This document shows positions 6,001 through 17,730 of a stretch of 17,730 bases of DNA, one piece after another. The stretch comes from Fidelibacterota bacterium (lineage in GTDB: Bacteria > Fidelibacterota > Marinisomatia > Marinisomatales > S15-B10), in NCBI GenBank assembly GCA_002729175.1, contig PBTS01000076.1, positions 1 through 17,730 on the forward strand. The letters are read 5' to 3'. Made by a program: the position numbers. The first letter of the stretch is position 1. Each line of letters opens with the position of its first letter.

Positions 6001-9000
6001 ATGACGGTCTGTTAGAATCACATGTACAAGTAGACCTAGTAGCATTTGAGCCTTTGCAATCCCCATTTCTTACAACAGGGAAAGGCGGACCCCATCTTGT
6101 TGAGGGAATTGGTGTAGGATTTGAACCTCCATTTCTGGACCGATCTAAGTTAAAAGAAATTAGAGCAATTGATCAAGAACACGCTTTCAAAATGTGCCAA
6201 CGTCTAGCCAGAAAAGAAGGAATATTTTGTGGAGGATCAACTGGTTTGAATGTTGTAGCAGCAATCGAGCTTGCAAAAGAAATTGGACCCGGCAAACGGA
6301 TAGTCACTCTTGGTTGCGACAATGGGATGAAATATCTCGGTAGCCATATATATATGTAAAGATGTAATTCGAGTAGTGGTCTGGTTTCCTTTATTTCTGG
6401 AAATTATTTCCATCCAATATTTTTTGTTTATTTGAACCTCAGTGGGTACTTCTTTCATCCCGACCGTCCCCCCGTCACATATCAGGTTGAGATTGGGAAA
6501 GAGGATGACCGATATGAGTCCGGAATACCAGATAAAAGTTTCTAATAAATATTAAGTTGTTTCTTTTGAGGGTTGTTGTCTTATGAATAGTCCAGCCCGA
6601 ATCCACTCAATTTCTTTTTGCATCCTTCATACAGGTCCAGGTATTTCTGCATCGGCTGCACCGTTTCCATATCGTAGCATTCATCGAACCGCTTGCCAAG
6701 AGGCGCATCGGATATCCGCGATTCGTACAAATCCAAAAGTCGCTTCACGATTTCGTTGGCGTGAGTCCGTGTCATACCCTGCCGGGCTGCAAGATGCCCT
6801 GCTTCCGCTCCGATGCGCGCCTCCATTCCTGTTGCCCGTTCCGGATGACGATTGCTTGCCACGGCCACCAGATTCAAATCTCCACCAGACACAGTGGATG
6901 CCAAAACATTGGCCACAATCTCGTAGACCACCATCTCGGTACATGGCCCGGCTGCGGCGAAAGGACTGATGGTAACCAGGAGATGGGTATTTCGGCTCAA
7001 AGCCTGTGTAGCGATGCTGATCAGCCACAGAAGCTCCCGCGTGGTATTGCAGAAGTGGTGGATATGCAGCGGGAAGCAGCAGTGCCACTGCGCCTCAAAC
7101 GCGAGCAACCCCAGGAAATGGTGCGCCACAAGCACCACGGCCGTCGATTCCGGTCCGCCGGCATACCCGCCCATCAACGGTCCGTACAGCCCGTACTTGT
7201 TGTGTCCGCTGTTCCGAAGAAACGCGACCTTTTTCACACGTTCATAGTCTATCTTCAACTCGGATATAGCAGCGATGGCCAGTCCGTCATTCGGCAGCAC
7301 GCCGAAGTCAGCCTGAACAGCGGCGAGGATGGCATCGGTCTGTTCAGCATTGGAAACCAGATTATGAATTCCGATCCCGGGCCGTCCGGCTGCCTTGGCC
7401 GCCTCCCGCAGTTTAATTACGTTCCAGATAGCGGCCTCTACCTCCTGGGGGGTCCCCGACTTGATGGGGCGACCATGAACGGTCTGGCTAAAAGCGCTGG
7501 AAAAGGTGTCGGCCAGGGGTTCCTGGGCGAAACTTTGTACCATAGGAACAAACCGCTCTTCGGCCACCGGTGCACCGACGGGTGTGCATAGACAAAACGG
7601 CGGCCGAGTGTCCTCGATACTCCGGCAGGCCATCACCGCCAGATCCTTTCCCTGTCCGTAGGTCACGGTGGTTGGGGCATGTTTCAGCGCCTGTTCCACT
7701 TCCTTGCGGGTAAATTTCAAAACACGACCTGTATCCCGGCAGAACATGCCCAGCTCCAAAAACAGATCGAGACCTGCCTGGTACACCCGATCCACCAGAT
7801 CCTCATCGGAAGGGACTACCTGCTCCGGATCATACCGGATGTCATACCGCTCGACGATCTCGCGGGCGGTCTGCGCCACTTTCCAGTCAAATTCCTCTTC
7901 TTTCACAAGCGTCCCGCTTTCGCTGCGACCGATCACATCCCAGAAACTGATCATGATACCTCACCTCCCCGCTTCTCCTGCATCAGACTTCTGGCAACTT
8001 CTACAGCTTTTGTCGCGTTTTCACCATAGCCGTCAGCGCCGATCTCTGCCGCCCACTCGGCCGTCACCGGTGCGCCGCCGATCATGACACGGTATTTGTC
8101 CCGCAGCCCCAGTTCACCCAGAAGATTGATAAGGTCAGGTTGATAGGTCATGGTGGTGGTCAACAGCGAGGAGGCGCCAATGATATCAGCGCCCAGCTCC
8201 TCCGCCTGCTCCACAAACCGGCGGACAGGTACGTCATAACCCAGATCATGGACCGTAAAACCGTCCGCCTGCAGCATGATTTTTACGATATTTTTACCGA
8301 TTTCATGTACGTCACCCTGGATGGTTCCCAGGATGATGGTGCCCTGGCTTCCGTGCCCCGGGCGCTCCAGAAGAGAGGGTCTGAGTACCTCCATGGCAGC
8401 ACTCACGGCGTTGGCCGAGAGCATTACCTCGGCCAGAAAACATTCCAGAACAGCGAACCTGTCACCGACGACGTGCATCCCTTTTGTATACCCCTCCTGA
8501 ATAGCCTGGACAGGATCTACACCCTCGTCCAGGGCGACCCGGGCAAGGGCCGCGCACTGCTCTTTATCCCCTTTAATCGTGGCTTCCGCCATCTGTTCAA
8601 AGAGATTCATCTTTGCGTTTACCTCCAGATGAGGTTTCCGGAGAGACTCTTAATACGGAAACGCCACCCCCATGGTGGCTATCTCGTCCTTCACCTTATT
8701 GAACATATCCAGGTACCAGGACATAGGGCGCGAAACGCGTACGTCATAACACTCCTGGAACGGCTTGCCCTTGGGTGCGTCGGCGATCCGGTCTTCGTAT
8801 TTCTCCAACATTTTCAGGGTGATATCGTTTGCCTGCTCCCGGGACATTCCCTGCTGTGCCGCGGCGTGTCCCACCTCACATGCCAGACGCGCTTCTAGCG
8901 GCGTAGCATAGTTACGATATTTGTTGTGCGCTACAGCGGCTTCCCACAGGTGTCCACCGGACACGGTACTGGCAAGTCCGTGGGCTGCCGCCTCCCACAA

Positions 9001-15000: not shown

Positions 15001-17730
15001 TCATTTCAGGAATTTTGGCAACCATCGCATTATAATCCACACTCGCTCCATTCTTCTCAAGCAATTCAAGAATAGGCTTGCTGAGAACTTTAATACCAAT
15101 TTCCTGCAGGCTTTTTATACTTTGAGCATGAATCAGATTCATCTCTTGTTGGTATAAAAAAACTGTTTTTGCCTTGGCCATTTTTATACCTCCATGAAAT
15201 TTGTCCAGATTGGGTTCTCCATATCAGAACAGCAAAAATATTTTAAAAAGCATCCACAAGCACTATGATATTAGGCGAAAATCCCGGATCTATTATCATG
15301 CATTCTTGTGCTTGGGACGATTCTGTCAGCACACAACAATTTGTTTCAAAATCACCAAGTACTAAACGTTCAATTTCCACGATTACTCCTATACTGTTTC
15401 AAATCCATTTACCCGGCAAGAATGTCACCGGTACTTGGGTTTTCCACGCCTAAGTAGCCGGTGTTTTCTGCTCCTCACCATGGACCGTTAACGTAATTCT
15501 TGACATTTGTTAAACTCACAATAATTCCCTTCTTCTATGAGTGCATACACCTAACAGACTGTTTAAAACTTGAATCGGACACCTAATTCCCCTAATTCCG
15601 CTTTGATTTTTTTATACAATTGTTTGTATTCCAGAATTGGCTGTTTTGTTTTCATATTCCAACACTGTTCATAGGTTTTGCCATTTGGCGCATTTGGAAT
15701 ATCATCTTCATATTTTGCCAATAATTTTTTAACAATCTCATTTCCTTGTGAACGAGTCATCCCGATTACACCATGCGCAATTTCCGAAGCCCATTTTGGT
15801 TCCATCGGCGTGAAATGATCAACTTCAACGGCCTTTGCAACACCTCCAAATTCTATAGATGCTCCGGAAACAACAGCGTTTATCACAACCGCTGCGATTT
15901 CATACAGGCACATTTCCGTCATCGGACCGGCTGCCACATAATTAAGAATAAAGAAGGGGAAATGACTGTTTCTGCTAATAGCCTGTGCACTAGCGCTATT
16001 GGCCCATATAACAGCCCTATCACTTGTGCATCCATGATTGACATGAATTGGAAATGTGAGTTGACAAGAACCTTTCATTAAGAGTATAGAATTAAGATGG
16101 TAAGCAACATTAGTTACAGCAGTTCCTTCCGGCCCGCCACAATAACCACCTAAAATGGGTGCGGATTCTGCAACTATATGACCTCCTAAATTCATAACAA
16201 AAGCAATCTCATTTAATCTTTCAAAATTAATCTTCATCTCCGCTATAGTACCGATTAACCAACCATCAGTTGGTCTAAGGCCAAATTGACTTCCTGCAAT
16301 TTTAGCCGTATCCGAACCTGCAGAAGCTATTGCATTCATAATAGGCAGACCCGCACGGCCACCTTTTCGCAAAGCTGACCTGGCTAAAGTACTGGATCGC
16401 ATGCAGGCTAGGATTTCCAAAGGACTTTTGGTACGAACAAGTCTTCCTTCAATATACTTAATCGTCGGAGTGGTGATGGAATCGGCCAATGGAAGAAATG
16501 ATGCATAGGCCTCTAAAATACTTTCAAATAGCGTTTCATTGGACACGGCTGCTCCACCAGCTCCTATAAAGCACCACGGATCAATATCGCTTTCGGGCTT
16601 ACGAGCTACCAGAGCCTTGGCATCACTTCCTTCGCCAAATACCGGTCGACTAGTAGCTTCGGCCAAACCTTCCAGAATTTCTTCCTCGGTAAATTTTATT
16701 ATACGTTCTGTATCGACACAGTAAATTCCTACATTGGCAAATAGATCTATTCCTGCCTTAAAAACTCTGTCTGCTAAATCGTCATCACAGGACAAAGGAT
16801 TTTCAGGATCATACTTAATTTCATATTTTTTTATTAATTCCCTTAGCTTTGGAACAAAGATATTTAAATCAAAGTCTTTTTCAGAAGTGAAGGGCCCTTC
16901 CAATGCCCTATCTATGATTTCTATAAGATTTACCAAATTTTTATATCCTTATGATTTTTGTTTTTTTGATAAAAATTCTAAAGCAAGTGCAACTGCTCTT
17001 TCAGCGTTTTCCCCATATATATCAGCTCCAATCTCATCAGCCCATTTTTGGGAAGTTGGGGCTCCGCCTATCATAACTAAATATTTTTCTCTTTGGCCTA
17101 TTTCTTTTAGAATGTCGATAAGATCTTTCTGGGATGCCATAGTAGTAGTCAAGAGCGATGACAAGGCTATAATATCAGCATCAACCCTACCAGCTTCCTC
17201 TATAAAAGTAGAAGTGGATACATCTTCACCGATATTGTGGACATTAAATCCCGCTGTTTCTAACATAATAGCAACAATATCTTTGCCGATTTTGTGTATG
17301 TCACCTTTAACTGTGCCAATCAGAACAGTACCTTTATTGAGACTTTTGCTTTTATCTGAACTGTCCGATAAAATATGAGGTTTTAAGATAGCCATTGCTG
17401 AAGTGAATGCTCCCGCAGCCATCATAAGTTCTGGTAAAAAAATTTCAAGTTTGTTGAATTTCTCTCCTACAACTTCCATCCCCTTTGACAAACCGTTCTC
17501 GATACCCTCCAAAGGACTATAATTTTCCTTAATAAGCAGCGTGGCAGCATCTTTACCTTTTTGCACATCCATCTCTACAACGCAATCGAACAGGTCTTTA
17601 AAAATATCCTCTTTATTCATAGCATATACTCCTTTCAAATAGTTTCTTTTCTATGTTAAAGTTCAAGAACATTTCTCTCCCGCTTAAAAGGAACATCTCC
17701 CGGATCAGGTTCATCAAACTCACGGGCAAA

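What a model noticed while it worked through the whole genome (the two positions that open the first line are those of the whole stretch)
6581..17655. Strain-specific island with three non-pyrrolysine MtmB paralogues, each with its own corrinoid protein, in SAR406
C82:6581-17655 is an accessory island encoding three full-length, stop-free homologues of monomethylamine methyltransferase MtmB (g01616, g01618, g01626; 457-459 aa, only 37-40% identical to each other), each lying immediately downstream of, and overlapping or abutting, its own corrinoid (B12-binding) protein gene (g01617, g01619, g01627; all on the minus strand), plus a non-Pyl MttB homologue (g01625). At the position of pyrrolysine-202 of Methanosarcina MtmB they carry His197 (g01616), Leu or Val (g01618; a one-residue gap makes the register ambiguous) and Met (g01626), never a stop codon, so they cannot be Pyl enzymes and probably demethylate three different, non-methylamine substrates (q [...]
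Evidence so far: Swiss-Prot table: 28-33% identity over the whole length to Methanosarcina MtmB1-3, E 1e-53..1e-76; PDB alignment to 1TV2/1L2Q puts His197 of g01616 opposite K/Pyl202; MAFFT alignment of the three paralogues gives 37-40% pairwise identity and H / L(V) / M in that column. PF05369 found in 1 of 401 Fidelibacterota genomes searched = this one, 3 copies; relatives.tsv 0/424. C82:1-6376 is 96%, 93% and 84% identical and collinear with three same-genus genomes, and synteny stops at the island border, where a family-specific repeat (C82:6433-6508) sits; more copies of that repeat lie inside the island (C82:11185, 12453), tying the island to this lineage rather than to a mis-binned contig; tetranucle [...]
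(Added by a program. Inside this text positions count along the whole contig: contig position 1 is position 1 of the stretch shown here. "Call 12" and the like, gene names such as g00115 and contig names such as C1 are that model's own, and its searches are not shown. The text may have been shortened before it was handed on; [...] marks where a part breaks off. The agent that wrote the report below was given it as the finding of a first reader that could run no searches.)

Follow-up and report, generated by a model that had tools for sequence, protein, structure and literature searches.

The report
Borrowed methyl-harvesting genes in ocean SAR406
A widespread ocean bacterium of the SAR406 group has taken over, from sediment bacteria that live without oxygen, three vitamin-B12-linked enzyme pairs of a known but poorly understood kind that probably strip methyl groups from small nitrogen compounds; the genes are real and kept by selection, but this is a new member of a known kind, not a new system.

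Summary
The genes are there as described. There are three full-length, stop-free MtmB homologues (36-40% identical to each other). Each lies just downstream of its own corrinoid protein gene, and there is also a Pyl-free MttB.

The region is not an assembly chimera. Independent metagenome contigs repeat the arrangement at 99.7-99.9% identity, and 14 DNA runs from 9 studies hold it.

It is not one island, and it is not confined to one assembly. It is a mosaic of four parts:
- a high-GC four-gene module (CP2-MtmB2-CP1-MtmB1), nested among Anaerolineae and Desulfobacterales genes;
- a core gene of the genus (M29-like);
- copies of a genus-specific repeat;
- a low-GC module (CP3-MtmB3-MttB), a deletion derivative of a larger amine-catabolism cluster that left a gene remnant behind.

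Each paralogue belongs to a separate, populous orthologue clade with its own fixed residue opposite pyrrolysine: His, Leu/Val or Met. dN/dS against a sibling copy is 0.05-0.11. RNA-library contigs from 4 studies cover the genes.

A RamA activase, a homocysteine-binding subunit and a further MttB/corrinoid pair lie elsewhere in the genome.

Substrates remain unknown. The comparison with MtqB, the only characterised Pyl-free MtmB, could not be made.

This scan has met Pyl-free MtmB operons before on other DNA. Verdict: a new member of a known kind, of moderate interest.

The parts
6421..6510 (.). Copy of a genus-specific intergenic repeat at the left edge of module 1
   Evidence: The stretch shared with the sibling copy L020 starts at 6463.
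6581..7954 (-). MtmB-1, a Pyl-free MtmB-family methyltransferase with His197 opposite Pyl
   Evidence: PF05369 E 1.5e-113. 1TV2 E 6e-76. His in 119 of 119 clade members. GC3 0.64.
7951..8610 (-). Corrinoid protein CP1 (DVHEIG at residue 100); overlaps the MtmB-1 start by 4 nt
   Evidence: PF02310+PF02607. TIGR02370 at 215.4 bits, cut-off 215.3. Motif.
8650..10029 (-). MtmB-2, a Pyl-free MtmB-family methyltransferase with Leu198/Val199 opposite Pyl
   Evidence: PF05369 E 2.5e-93. 1L2Q E 2e-55. Phe-Leu-Val conserved in 112, 104 and 112 of 115.
10016..10678 (-). Corrinoid protein CP2 (DVHEIG at residue 100); overlaps the MtmB-2 start by 14 nt
10679..10817 (-). Upstream leader of module 1, shared with the sibling copy L020. 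RNA-library contigs of three studies end at 10730-10763.
   Evidence: This is only a weak hint of a transcript 5' end.
11169..11256 (.). Repeat copy; a further short copy lies at 10889-10913
11282..12430 (-). M29-like peptidase gene. It is a core gene of the genus and not part of any acquired module.
   Evidence: 95-96% nt identity in G284, G146 and G321 on other contigs. PF02073 E 1e-6.
12439..12654 (.). Longest repeat copy. The alternative right flank of variant L019 starts at 12603.
12676..13434 (-). Two small ORFs (123 and 92 aa) without a family match, with repeat copies at 13049-13146 and 13517-13629
13751..15181 (-). Pyl-free MttB-superfamily methyltransferase
   Evidence: PF06253 E 1.3e-61. 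PDB 7XCL E 2e-55, MtgB 2QNE/9YCE E 4e-43. 83% aa identity to the MttB of L183.
15415..15519 (-). 35-codon remnant of a methylmalonate-semialdehyde dehydrogenase gene, with an in-frame stop. It is the scar of a roughly 2.7-kb deletion.
   Evidence: tblastn: 77% identity, E 4.6e-11, to the N-terminus of the L183 MMSDH. That MMSDH scores 493 bits on TIGR01722, cut-off 448.5.
15563..16936 (-). MtmB-3, a Pyl-free MtmB-family methyltransferase with Met200 opposite Pyl
   Evidence: PF05369 E 3.6e-99. 1L2Q E 4e-66. Met in 103 of 113. GC3 0.30.
16949..17638 (-). Corrinoid protein CP3 (DIHKIG at residue 113)
17643..17650 (.). Junction where the fuller cluster (L183) carries 5.1 kb more (an M14-like gene and an aldehyde dehydrogenase). 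RNA-library contigs of 3 runs diverge here.
17656..17730 (-). Last 24 codons and stop of a flavoprotein gene of the histamine/trimethylamine dehydrogenase family. The gene runs off the contig.
   Evidence: L016 extends it to 98 aa. It hits 6DE6 E 2.7e-18, 3K30 E 2.3e-16 and 1DJN E 1e-10, aligned to their C-terminal ends. The full-length 695-aa homologue in L183 carries PF00724+PF07992.

Best explanation
SHOWN. The contig is a repeat-rich variable region of a pelagic SAR406 (Marinimicrobia) genome. It holds two separately acquired sets of corrinoid-dependent methyltransferase genes.

Module 1 (6463-10817, GC 56%) is the four-gene unit CP2-MtmB2-CP1-MtmB1. The same unit occurs in Anaerolineae, and its two MtmBs nest among Anaerolineae and Desulfobacterales sequences. 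A sibling SAR406 strain carries it at another repeat-flanked site. It is under strong purifying selection.

Module 3 (about 13690-17650, GC about 40%) is CP3-MtmB3-MttB, preceded by a flavoprotein gene of the histamine/trimethylamine dehydrogenase family. It is a cut-down version of a larger cluster that elsewhere also holds an APC permease, two aldehyde dehydrogenases (one an MMSDH) and a class-III aminotransferase. A 35-codon MMSDH remnant marks the deletion.

All three MtmBs are full-length Pyl-free members of three different, populous orthologue clades.

INFERRED.
- Each MtmB is a substrate-specific 'MT1' that moves a methyl group from a different N-methylated small molecule onto the Co(I) form of its own corrinoid protein. 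Candidates are quaternary or less methylated amines such as choline-, betaine- or omega-amino-acid-type osmolytes. For module 3 the fuller cluster points to an N-methylated beta-alanine- or GABA-like skeleton.
- Reactivation of the corrinoid protein and onward transfer of the methyl group would use genes elsewhere in the genome. These are the RamA/RACo activase and the stand-alone homocysteine-binding (PF02574, MtgE-like) subunit of the resident MttB cluster on contig C46, or MetH. The methyl groups would then end up in methionine/SAM or in the C1 pool.
- The SAR406 lineage kept the methyl-harvesting parts and lost the carbon-skeleton catabolic genes. This suggests that the methyl group, not the skeleton, is what is selected for.

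The confidence figure is for the whole reading. The shown parts alone I put at about 0.9, and the inferred substrate class and acceptor at about 0.5.
For: Gene identity.

The assembly is real:
- L016, L017, L018 and L019, from different assemblies, are 99.7-99.9% identical and collinear over window 3368-17730, 1-17036, 6012-11312 and 1-12603.
- The exact MtmB-1 protein is recorded on 152 contigs.
- 14 DNA runs of 9 studies hold 93-94% of the sampled words.

Lineage:
- Core DNA of the genus lies on both sides of module 1.
- The left flank of L020 is 97.7% identical to G000:C59.
- Depositors name near-identical proteins Marinimicrobia/Neomarinimicrobiota.

Horizontal acquisition:
- PF05369 is in 1 of 401 phylum genomes.
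- GC3 of the module 1 genes is 0.62-0.68. The genome's long ORFs have mean 0.457 and 99th percentile 0.636. GC3 of MtmB3 and CP3 is 0.30, at the 1st percentile (0.302).
- In the tree, WIN_MtmB1 lies inside a 22-row Anaerolineae/Desulfobacterales clade (SH-aLRT 95). WIN_MtmB2 lies inside Anaerolineae/Thermoleophilia (99). WIN_MtmB3 lies in a 6-row clade (100).
- The four-gene order recurs in L034, L079 and L108.
- Donor-like Anaerolineae loci have GC 0.58-0.63.

Selection: dN/dS of window against L020 is 0.067, 0.053, 0.047 and 0.107, with dS 0.15-0.27.

Clade-specific residues opposite Pyl. Across 128 full-length family representatives that column is highly variable.

Corrinoid pairing is the rule. 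78 of 83 MtmB-family genes in the metagenome loci, and 75 of 89 in the species-genome loci, have a corrinoid gene ending within -60 to +150 nt upstream.

Deletion derivative.

Downstream parts: contig C46 holds MttB, a PF02574 protein, RamA/RACo, DUF1638 and a corrinoid protein. MetH is on C76.

RNA libraries: contigs of 4 studies cover module 1. One of them (X15) is a single 4129-nt contig spanning 6635-10763.

Precedents:
- MtqB, a Pyl-free MtmB, demethylates tetramethylammonium and choline (PMC13044021; abstract and sections 3, 15, 16, 18 read).
- Aerobic marine bacteria run a split B12 methyltransferase made of PF06253, PF02310, PF00809 and PF02574 parts (PMC12478193; abstract and passages read).
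- G000 encodes haem-copper oxidase.
Against:
- The window copies lack any transporter or skeleton-catabolic gene that would point to a substrate.
- The context hints come from other organisms.
- No stand-alone pterin-binding MT2 (MtgA/MtgD type) was found. The only PF00809 hits are FolP (DHPS, 307 bits, cut-off 162.6) and MetH. The route to tetrahydrofolate is therefore unsupported.
- The route to homocysteine rests on one PF02574 protein that scores below every NCBIfam cut-off.
- It is not shown that the C46 RamA or PF02574 proteins serve the island's corrinoid proteins.
- RNA-library contigs cannot exclude DNA carry-over. X15 also yields a 7.4-kb contig across flank genes on both strands.
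- The tree root is a midpoint only, and support values come from a quick search.
- The MAG has 7.1% estimated contamination.
Confidence: 0.6

Rival explanations
1. The region is an assembly or binning artefact. Foreign high-GC DNA was joined to a SAR406 contig at the repeat.
For: - The GC jump at 6.5 kb and 10.7 kb coincides with repeat copies.
- The MAG has 7.1% estimated contamination.
- PF05369 is in no other of the 401 phylum genomes searched.
Against: - Four independent assemblies give the same joins at 99.7-99.9% identity.
- A fifth, L020, has the module in other SAR406 DNA that is 97.7% identical to G000:C59.
- Core genus DNA lies on both sides of module 1.
- 14 DNA runs of 9 studies hold the stretch.
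Confidence: 0.02
2. The three enzymes are ordinary monomethylamine:corrinoid methyltransferases that work without pyrrolysine.
For: - They match the MtmB family over the full length.
Against: - Three enzymes only 36-40% identical, with different fixed residues at the Pyl site, are unlikely to share one substrate.
- The cited paper treats Pyl as needed for methylamine methyltransferase function and reports only residual MMA activity for MtqB.
Confidence: 0.05
3. The substrates are not amine osmolytes at all. They could be methylated purine- or histidine-type compounds, as earlier notes of this scan guessed for other Pyl-free MtmB clusters, or S- or O-methyl donors.
For: - Earlier notes on other DNA (unchecked).
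- Clade-1 relatives sit near amino-acid-type ABC binding proteins, Asp/Glu/hydantoin racemase-like genes, DUF3830/cucumopine-synthase-C genes, molybdopterin oxidoreductases and, once, an aromatic amino-acid lyase.
- An aminotransferase sits inside the module in L034 and L079.
Against: - The only characterised Pyl-free MtmB uses quaternary amines (PMC13044021).
- MttB homologues, whose characterised members all take quaternary amines according to that paper's introduction, lie directly downstream of clade-1 MtmBs. This holds in 15 of 38 metagenome loci and 12 of 25 species-genome loci that have at least 1.6 kb of DNA downstream.
- The fuller form of module 3 has amine dehydrogenase, omega-aminotransferase and aldehyde dehydrogenase genes.
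Confidence: 0.25
4. The genes are decaying passengers of horizontal transfer with no present function in SAR406.
For: - Module 3 has lost neighbouring genes and carries a pseudogene remnant.
- No dedicated transporter or MT2 lies beside the genes.
- Composition has not drifted toward that of the host.
Against: - All seven methyltransferase and corrinoid ORFs are intact.
- dN/dS is 0.05-0.11 over dS 0.15-0.27 between two SAR406 copies.
- The DxHxxG motifs are kept.
- RNA-library contigs from 4 studies cover the genes.
- The sequence is near-identical across many samples.
Confidence: 0.06

Closest known systems
MtqB/MtqC of Methanococcoides methylutens Q3c (tetramethylammonium- and choline:corrinoid methyltransferase; Kashyap et al. 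2026, PMC13044021)
   Same: - A Pyl-free member of the MtmB family with an adjacent cognate corrinoid protein.
- A three-component methyl-transfer logic with RamA.
- The paper's own tree holds 1,061 MtmBs, most of them Pyl-free and of unknown function.
   Different: - MtqB belongs to a methanogen and passes the methyl group to coenzyme M through MtbA. Here the host is a bacterium with haem-copper oxidase and no MtbA-type partner beside the genes.
- Whether any of the three clades is the MtqB clade could not be tested, because no MtqB sequence was obtainable.
MtmB1 of Methanosarcina barkeri (Pyl-dependent monomethylamine:corrinoid methyltransferase; PDB 1L2Q, 1NTH, 1TV2)
   Same: Full-length homology, with E 6e-76 to 2e-55. 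The same family, PF05369. Pairing with a corrinoid protein.
   Different: His, Leu/Val or Met stands in place of pyrrolysine-202, encoded by sense codons. The hosts are bacterial. The substrate is presumably not monomethylamine.
Split cobalamin-dependent methyltransferase MtgB/MtgC/MtgD/MtgE of Ruegeria pomeroyi (Mausz et al. 2025, PMC12478193), and MtgB/MtgC/MtgA of Desulfitobacterium hafniense
   Same: Separate substrate-binding, B12-binding and acceptor-binding subunits in a marine bacterium that can respire oxygen. Contig C46 of this genome has MttB, a corrinoid protein, a PF02574 homocysteine-binding subunit and RamA.
   Different: - The MT1s in the window are of the MtmB family (PF05369), not PF06253, apart from the one MttB.
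- No stand-alone pterin-binding MtgD/MtgA was found.
- SAR406 is not mentioned in that paper.
Multi-paralogue Pyl-free MtmB clusters of Anaerolineales, Desulfobacterales and Spirochaetes
   Same: The same orthologue clades, at 64-85% identity. The same CP-MtmB pairing and the same CP2-MtmB2...CP1-MtmB1 order.
   Different: Those clusters carry the accompanying MttB, molybdopterin oxidoreductase, transporter and aminotransferase genes. The SAR406 copy is stripped to the four methyl-transfer genes and sits in a low-GC pelagic genome.

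Membership tests
MtmB family (PF05369), Pyl-free subgroup | Full-length match to the family profile above its curated cut-off | tested here: met
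   380.5, 313.8 and 333.0 bits against a cut-off of 25, covering profile positions 2/3 to 449/450.
MtmB family (PF05369), Pyl-free subgroup | Homology to the solved MtmB fold over the whole chain | tested here: met
   1TV2/1L2Q: E 6e-76, 2e-55 and 4e-66, with residues about 5-455 aligned to 9-458. The fold itself was not modelled.
MtmB family (PF05369), Pyl-free subgroup | A sense codon, not UAG, at the position aligned with Pyl202 | tested here: met
   His197, Leu198/Val199 and Met200. The ORFs are uninterrupted under table 11.
MtmB family (PF05369), Pyl-free subgroup | An adjacent cognate corrinoid protein with the DxHxxG cobalamin-binding motif | tested here: met
   PF02310+PF02607 in all three. 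DVHEIG, DVHEIG and DIHKIG.
MtmB family (PF05369), Pyl-free subgroup | Substrate-dependent methylation of cob(I)alamin or the corrinoid protein | not testable with these tools
   This needs a biochemical assay.
Pyl-dependent monomethylamine methyltransferase (MtmB proper) | In-frame UAG decoded as pyrrolysine at position 202 | tested here: not met
   Sense codons stand at that position in all three.
MtqB (tetramethylammonium/choline methyltransferase) clade | Clusters with Methanococcoides MtqB in a family tree | not testable with these tools
   - No Methanococcoides locus was among the 80 kept of 400 relatives.
- The paper and its supplements print no sequence.
MtqB (tetramethylammonium/choline methyltransferase) clade | The conserved Met, Cys and aromatic residues of the docked binding site | not testable with these tools
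   The paper gives logo positions only, without residue numbers.
Split B12 methyltransferase system (MT1 + corrinoid protein + MT2 + activase) | A reductive activase of the RamA/RACo type in the genome | tested here: met
   G000:C46:4526-6040, carrying PF14574+PF17651+PF00111. It scores below the NCBIfam cut-offs for RamA and AcsV.
Split B12 methyltransferase system (MT1 + corrinoid protein + MT2 + activase) | An MT2 that takes the methyl group off the corrinoid: the pterin-binding (PF00809) MtgA/MtgD type | tested here: not met
   The only PF00809 hits are DHPS/FolP on C47 and MetH on C76. The MAG is 93% complete.
Split B12 methyltransferase system (MT1 + corrinoid protein + MT2 + activase) | An MT2 of the homocysteine-binding (PF02574, MtgE-like) type | tested here: met
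   G000:C46:3641-4525, PF02574 E 8.8e-51, lies between MttB and RamA. Its use by the island's corrinoid proteins is inferred.
Single horizontally acquired genomic island | One contiguous block absent from close relatives | tested here: not met
   Window 11167-12431 is 95-96% identical in all three same-genus genomes. The rest of 6581-17655 is not found in them, apart from the repeats.
Single horizontally acquired genomic island | Uniform foreign composition | tested here: not met
   Module 1 has GC3 0.62-0.68. Module 3 has GC3 0.30-0.37. The genome mean is 0.457.
Single horizontally acquired genomic island | Integrase, transposase or a tRNA target at a border | tested here: not met
   - No such family was found among the 15 ORFs scanned.
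- The one ARAGORN call (tRNA-His, 7079-7165) lies inside the MtmB-1 coding sequence and is not backed by Rfam.
- Instead, the borders carry a genus repeat.

The most novel reading that the evidence does not exclude
A globally distributed pelagic SAR406 population has imported methyl-transfer enzymes from anaerobic sediment bacteria. The imports are three different Pyl-free MtmB/corrinoid pairs and an MttB. The population then shed the carbon-skeleton catabolic genes that accompany them in the donors, leaving a gene remnant as a scar. The retained parts act as a pure methyl-harvesting battery. They plug into a resident RamA activase and a homocysteine-binding subunit. In this way the methyl groups of several N-methylated osmolytes go straight into methionine/SAM in oxygenated or dark-ocean water.

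In this reading the recurrent order CP-MtmB-MttB means that MttB-type and MtmB-type enzymes take successive methyl groups off one polymethylated amine while sharing a single corrinoid protein. That would give Pyl-free MtmBs the so far unassigned tertiary or secondary demethylation steps.
Probability: 0.2. Interest if true: 0.75.

Novelty: new member of a known kind. Interest (0 to 1): 0.5.

Why it matters
Pyl-free MtmB homologues are numerous. There are 252 clusters at 50% identity with E <= 1e-30 and 1,061 sequences in the published tree. Only one of them, MtqB, has a known function.

The case here is compact, independently assembled, constrained by selection and apparently transcribed. It sits in one of the most abundant uncultured groups of the dark ocean, in water-column rather than sediment samples.

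If the three enzymes take different methylated nitrogen compounds, SAR406 would be a so far unlisted sink for such osmolytes. It would also be a further example, after Ruegeria MtgBCDE, of B12-dependent demethylation outside strict anaerobes, with consequences for B12 demand and methyl-group budgets.

The three pairs are small and lie next to their carrier proteins, which makes them convenient targets for expression and substrate screening.

I found no paper linking MtmB to SAR406/Marinimicrobia. Searches gave one unrelated paper holding both words.

Tried and rejected
1. Chimera or mis-binning: rejected.

2. MtqB clade test: not possible.
   - The genome-contig scan kept the 80 best of 400 relatives, and none was from Methanococcoides.
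   - The paper's text and two supplements hold no sequence.
   - The Atlas added nothing.

3. Fetching more of the metagenome contigs beyond the window end: those records are not held. Only 224 nt beyond 17730 were seen.

4. 'No MTHFR, hence dependence on scavenged methyl groups': PF02219 was not found in G000. However, 12 of 21 relatives have it, and G146 has a fragment at a contig end. Absence from this 93%-complete MAG is therefore inconclusive, and I dropped the idea.

5. The rest of the amine-dehydrogenase gene:
   - PF00724 was not found elsewhere in G000.
   - The protein fragment was not found in the three same-genus genomes.
   - The gene is known only from L016 and L183.

6. Rfam: no family at gathering score. 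The promoter and terminator scan gave nothing usable.

7. ARAGORN's tRNA-His at 7079-7165 lies inside a coding sequence and is judged a false call.

8. Joints 6476->12411 and 6476->12504 in RNA-library contigs have sides of only 22-32 nt inside repeat copies. I read them as repeat cross-matches, not as an empty site.

9. Depth figures were not used to rank genes, because these are contigs only. Parts without cover were not interpreted.

10. Look-ups of this scan's earlier notes by sequence found no near relative of the three proteins. One distant hit shared 4 of 180 words. This genome had no notes.

11. Gene neighbourhoods of clade-1 relatives gave recurrent partners but no clear substrate. 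The partners are MttB, molybdopterin oxidoreductase, amino-acid-type binding proteins, racemase-like genes and DUF3830/cucumopine-C genes.

12. Structure prediction and complex prediction were not run. Full-length homology to a solved structure already fixes the fold class, and a corrinoid/MT1 pair is a textbook pair.

Full report
**What is in the window**

The window is the whole of contig C82 (17,730 bp) of a 1.83-Mb metagenome-assembled genome with 87 contigs. Estimated completeness is 93% and contamination 7.1%.

On the minus strand lie, in order of transcription:
- the last codons of a gene running off the contig (17656-17730);
- CP3 (16949-17638), MtmB-3 (15563-16936) and MttB (13751-15181);
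- two small ORFs;
- an M29-like peptidase gene (11282-12430);
- CP2 (10016-10678), MtmB-2 (8650-10029), CP1 (7951-8610) and MtmB-1 (6581-7954).

The left 6.4 kb holds FecR-like, BioF/Kbl-like and CysK-like genes and one gene of unknown family.

The three MtmBs match PF05369 end to end, with E 1.5e-113, 2.5e-93 and 3.6e-99. They match solved Methanosarcina MtmB1 with E 6e-76, 2e-55 and 4e-66. They are 40, 36 and 36% identical to each other.

The three corrinoid proteins are 44-49% identical to each other. They carry PF02310+PF02607 and the DxHxxG motif.

Opposite pyrrolysine-202 stand His197 in MtmB-1 and Met200 in MtmB-3. In MtmB-2 it is Val199 by phmmer or Leu198 by MAFFT.

**Is it real?**

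Yes. Contigs from other assemblies are 99.7-99.9% identical and collinear with the window:
- L016 covers 3368-17730 and goes on beyond the end;
- L017, from a 49,964-bp contig, covers 1-17036;
- L018 covers 6012-11312;
- L019 covers 1-12603.

The exact MtmB-1 protein is on record from 152 contigs, the longest 108 kb. Depositors name near-identical proteins Marinimicrobia or Neomarinimicrobiota. Fourteen DNA runs of nine studies (marine or seawater metagenomes) hold 93-94% of the sampled words of 6581-16580.

Core DNA of the genus lies on both sides of the high-GC segment. Window 1-6376 is 96% identical to G284, and 11167-12431 is 95-96% identical to all three same-genus genomes. A chimeric join is excluded.

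**It is a mosaic, not one island**

GC runs at 55-58% over 6.5-10.5 kb. The flanks are at about 42%, and 15.5-17.5 kb is at 38-41%.

GC3 of the four module 1 genes is 0.62-0.68. That is at or above the 99th percentile (0.636) of the genome's 728 long ORFs. GC3 of MtmB-3 and CP3 is 0.30, at the 1st percentile, and that of MttB is 0.37.

Between the two modules lies a core gene, the M29-like peptidase. The gaps are filled with copies of a repeat. This repeat has many copies in the three genus genomes. It also lies on about nine contigs of this genome, often at contig ends.

Variants exist:
- L019 shares 1-12603 and then continues with unrelated DNA. Module 3 is therefore not always present with module 1.
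- L020 carries module 1 at 94% nucleotide identity, equal to window 6463-10817, in another place. Its left flank is 97.7% identical to G000:C59, and repeat copies lie on both sides of the module.
- Loose ends of RNA-library contigs at 6452, 12432-12603 and 17643 fit such alternative junctions.

No integrase or transposase was found. No credible tRNA was found either.

**Where the genes came from**

PF05369 occurs in 1 of 401 genomes sampled from the phylum, which is this one. By contrast, MttB and RamA each occur in 64 of 401.

Each paralogue has hundreds of close relatives elsewhere. After the SAR406 copies at 96-97%, the named relatives are as follows:
- MtmB-1: unnamed hits at 80%, then Anaerolineae at 79% and Desulfobacterales at 76-78%.
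- MtmB-2: unnamed hits at 86%, then Chloroflexi and Anaerolineae at 80-81%.
- MtmB-3: hits at 87-92% from MAGs labelled Aminicenantes, Thermodesulfobacteriota, Pseudomonadota and Planctomycetota.

A scan of one genome per prokaryote species found 400 relatives and kept the best 80. These were Anaerolineae, Desulfobacterales, Spirochaetaceae, Thermoleophilia, and Asgard and Bathyarchaeia archaea.

The tree has 99 rows (IQ-TREE quick search, LG+C20, midpoint root) and shows three clades with SH-aLRT 99-100:
- The SAR406 pair (window plus L020) for MtmB-1 lies inside a 22-row Anaerolineae/Desulfobacterales clade (95).
- The pair for MtmB-2 lies inside Anaerolineae, within a 10-row clade (99).
- MtmB-3 lies in a 6-row clade (100).

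The order CP2-MtmB2...CP1-MtmB1 recurs in L034, L079 and the Anaerolineae locus L108, at 64-85% protein identity and with an aminotransferase between the pairs. Donor-like Anaerolineae loci have GC 0.58-0.63.

Transfer of module 1 as a unit from an Anaerolineae-like donor is the simplest reading.

**Module 3 is a cut-down cluster**

A species genome labelled Aminicenantes (G405, contig of 66,983 bp) carries a 92% identical MtmB-3.

The gene order there is: APC permease; a 695-aa flavoprotein with PF00724+PF07992; an M14-like protein; an aldehyde dehydrogenase (PuuC/BADH-like, below cut-offs); CP3 (83%); MtmB-3 (92%); MMSDH (TIGR01722, 493 bits against a cut-off of 448.5); a class-III aminotransferase; and MttB (83%).

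Nucleotide identity to the window is 95.5% over 17730-17643, 92% over 17650-15416 and 88.5% over 15194-13687.

The window lacks the 5.1 kb between the flavoprotein gene and CP3. It also lacks the roughly 2.7 kb holding MMSDH and the aminotransferase. At 15415-15519 it keeps 35 codons of the MMSDH N-terminus (77% identity, E 4.6e-11) broken by a stop. G000 has no close copy (above 40%) of the lost genes.

The gene that runs off the contig end is the flavoprotein. Its last 98 residues, taken from L016, match histamine dehydrogenase (6DE6 E 2.7e-18, 3K30 E 2.3e-16) and trimethylamine dehydrogenase (1DJN E 1e-10) at their C-terminal ends.

**Are the genes in use?**

Between the window and L020, dN/dS is 0.067 for MtmB-1, 0.053 for CP1, 0.047 for MtmB-2 and 0.107 for CP2, at dS 0.15-0.27.

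Six metatranscriptome runs of four studies hold 50-85% of the words. Contigs from four of these runs were laid, one per study, and they cover module 1. In X15 a single 4129-nt contig spans 6635-10763. In X17, X19 and X20 pieces end at 10738, 10730 and 6580. Parts of module 3 are covered too.

Contigs cannot show strand or level, and DNA carry-over is not excluded. This is therefore support, not proof.

**How it most likely works**

Shown:
- The family, the pairing and the motifs are established.
- Pairing with a corrinoid protein is the rule in the family. It holds for 78 of 83 MtmB-family genes in the metagenome loci and 75 of 89 in the species-genome loci.
- The residue opposite Pyl is fixed within each clade: His in 119 of 119, Met in 103 of 113, and Phe-Leu-Val in 112, 104 and 112 of 115.
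- Across 128 full-length family representatives that column is highly variable: Leu 20, Ile 15, Gly 15, Val 13, and so on down to His 3 and Lys 1. This is what one expects of a specificity-determining position.

Inferred:
- Each MtmB methylates its own corrinoid protein from a different N-methylated donor. The only characterised Pyl-free MtmB, MtqB, uses tetramethylammonium and choline (PMC13044021).
- For module 3, the fuller cluster suggests an N-methylated omega-amino compound such as a beta-alanine- or GABA-type betaine. That cluster holds a permease, an amine dehydrogenase, an omega-aminotransferase, MMSDH and a second aldehyde dehydrogenase. The inference is from gene content only.
- MttB homologues lie directly downstream of clade-1 MtmBs in 15 of 38 metagenome loci and 12 of 25 species-genome loci with enough downstream DNA. 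In module 3, MttB follows MtmB-3. This would fit successive demethylations sharing one corrinoid protein.

The rest of the machinery is elsewhere in the genome:
- Contig C46 carries an OprB porin, MttB, a 294-aa PF02574 (homocysteine-binding) protein, a RamA/RACo activase, DUF1638 and a corrinoid protein. In several other genomes of the order, MttB and RamA matches lie about 1 kb apart on one contig (for example G305:C40, G191:C49, G170:C12).
- C86 has a URO-D-family protein with a corrinoid protein.
- C76 has MetH.
- The only other pterin-binding protein is FolP.

The most economical acceptor is therefore homocysteine. This follows the split MtgB/C/D/E system of aerobic marine Ruegeria (PMC12478193; abstract and passages read). 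A route to tetrahydrofolate has no dedicated gene here. The genome encodes haem-copper oxidase.

**Comparison with what is known, and novelty**

Pyl-free MtmBs are a large known family. There are 1104, 662 and 252 clusters at 50% identity with E <= 1e-3, 1e-10 and 1e-30, and 1,061 sequences in the published tree.

This scan has reported such operons on other DNA several times, in Thermofilum, Anaerolineales, spirochaetes and others. None of them shares sequence with these three.

What is new here:
- the host, SAR406, for which I found no paper mentioning MtmB;
- the water-column setting;
- the two-module mosaic with clear donors;
- the stripping-down to methyl-transfer parts;
- the probable link to a homocysteine-binding subunit.

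That makes it a new member of a known kind.

What stays open:
- the substrates;
- whether any clade equals MtqB, which could not be tested;
- the methyl acceptor;
- the right border.

Noticed in passing
window 6421-6510, 10889-10913, 11169-11256, 12439-12654, 13049-13146, 13517-13629; L020 5316-5488 and about 10640-11220: A genus-specific intergenic repeat (core about 70 nt, up to about 170 nt). It brackets module 1 at two different genomic sites in sibling strains and sits at many contig ends. It may mediate the rearrangements. No Rfam match and no inverted repeats were reported.
   Followed up: partly
window 15415-15519 (-): A 35-codon remnant of a methylmalonate-semialdehyde dehydrogenase gene with an in-frame stop. 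It is the scar of a roughly 2.7-kb deletion relative to L183.
   Followed up: yes
window 17656-17730 (-), L016 3-299, L183 1770-3857: A flavoprotein gene of the histamine/trimethylamine dehydrogenase family lies directly upstream of CP3 and runs off the contig. It was not found elsewhere in this MAG or in the three same-genus genomes.
   Followed up: partly
G000:C46:850-11651 (L101): A resident cluster: OprB porin, Pyl-free MttB (550 aa), a stand-alone homocysteine-binding PF02574 protein, a RamA/RACo activase, DUF1638, a corrinoid protein, an FGase-like protein and a TonB-dependent receptor. MttB and RamA matches lie about 1 kb apart on one contig in several genomes of the order.
   Followed up: partly
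G000:C86:4145-5916 (L102): A URO-D-family (weakly MtaA/CmuA-like) protein next to a fifth corrinoid protein, with GC 51-53% against 46% for the genome. This may be another acquired methyltransferase pair.
   Followed up: no
P0404 and P0499; G402:C13:22939-24300: - Two family representatives of about 260 aa start 1-3 residues after the Pyl-aligned column. One of them is 59% identical to MtmB-1. They may be C-terminal halves of UAG-split, Pyl-encoding genes close to clade 1.
- A Desulfobacterales genome has an MtmB homologue with one in-frame TAG.
   Followed up: no
L034, L052, L056, L062, L066, L070, L082, L028: In other organisms the CP1-MtmB1 pair is often followed by an MttB homologue and a roughly 700-aa molybdopterin oxidoreductase with an N-terminal Fe4S4 domain. 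Amino-acid-type or NMT1 binding proteins, an Asp/Glu/hydantoin-racemase-like gene and a DUF3830/cucumopine-synthase-C protein follow. This conserved neighbourhood has unknown meaning.
   Followed up: partly
window 7079-7165 (-): ARAGORN calls an 87-nt tRNA-His inside the MtmB-1 coding sequence. Rfam finds no tRNA there, so this is probably a false call.
   Followed up: partly
window 2330-2383: A tandem 27-nt repeat (74% alike) inside the FecR-like 746-aa ORF.
   Followed up: no
MtmB-3 relatives at 87-92% identity come from MAGs labelled with four or five different phyla (Aminicenantes, Thermodesulfobacteriota, Pseudomonadota, Planctomycetota, SAR406). Either the module spread very recently across phyla, or several bins are wrong.
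   Followed up: no
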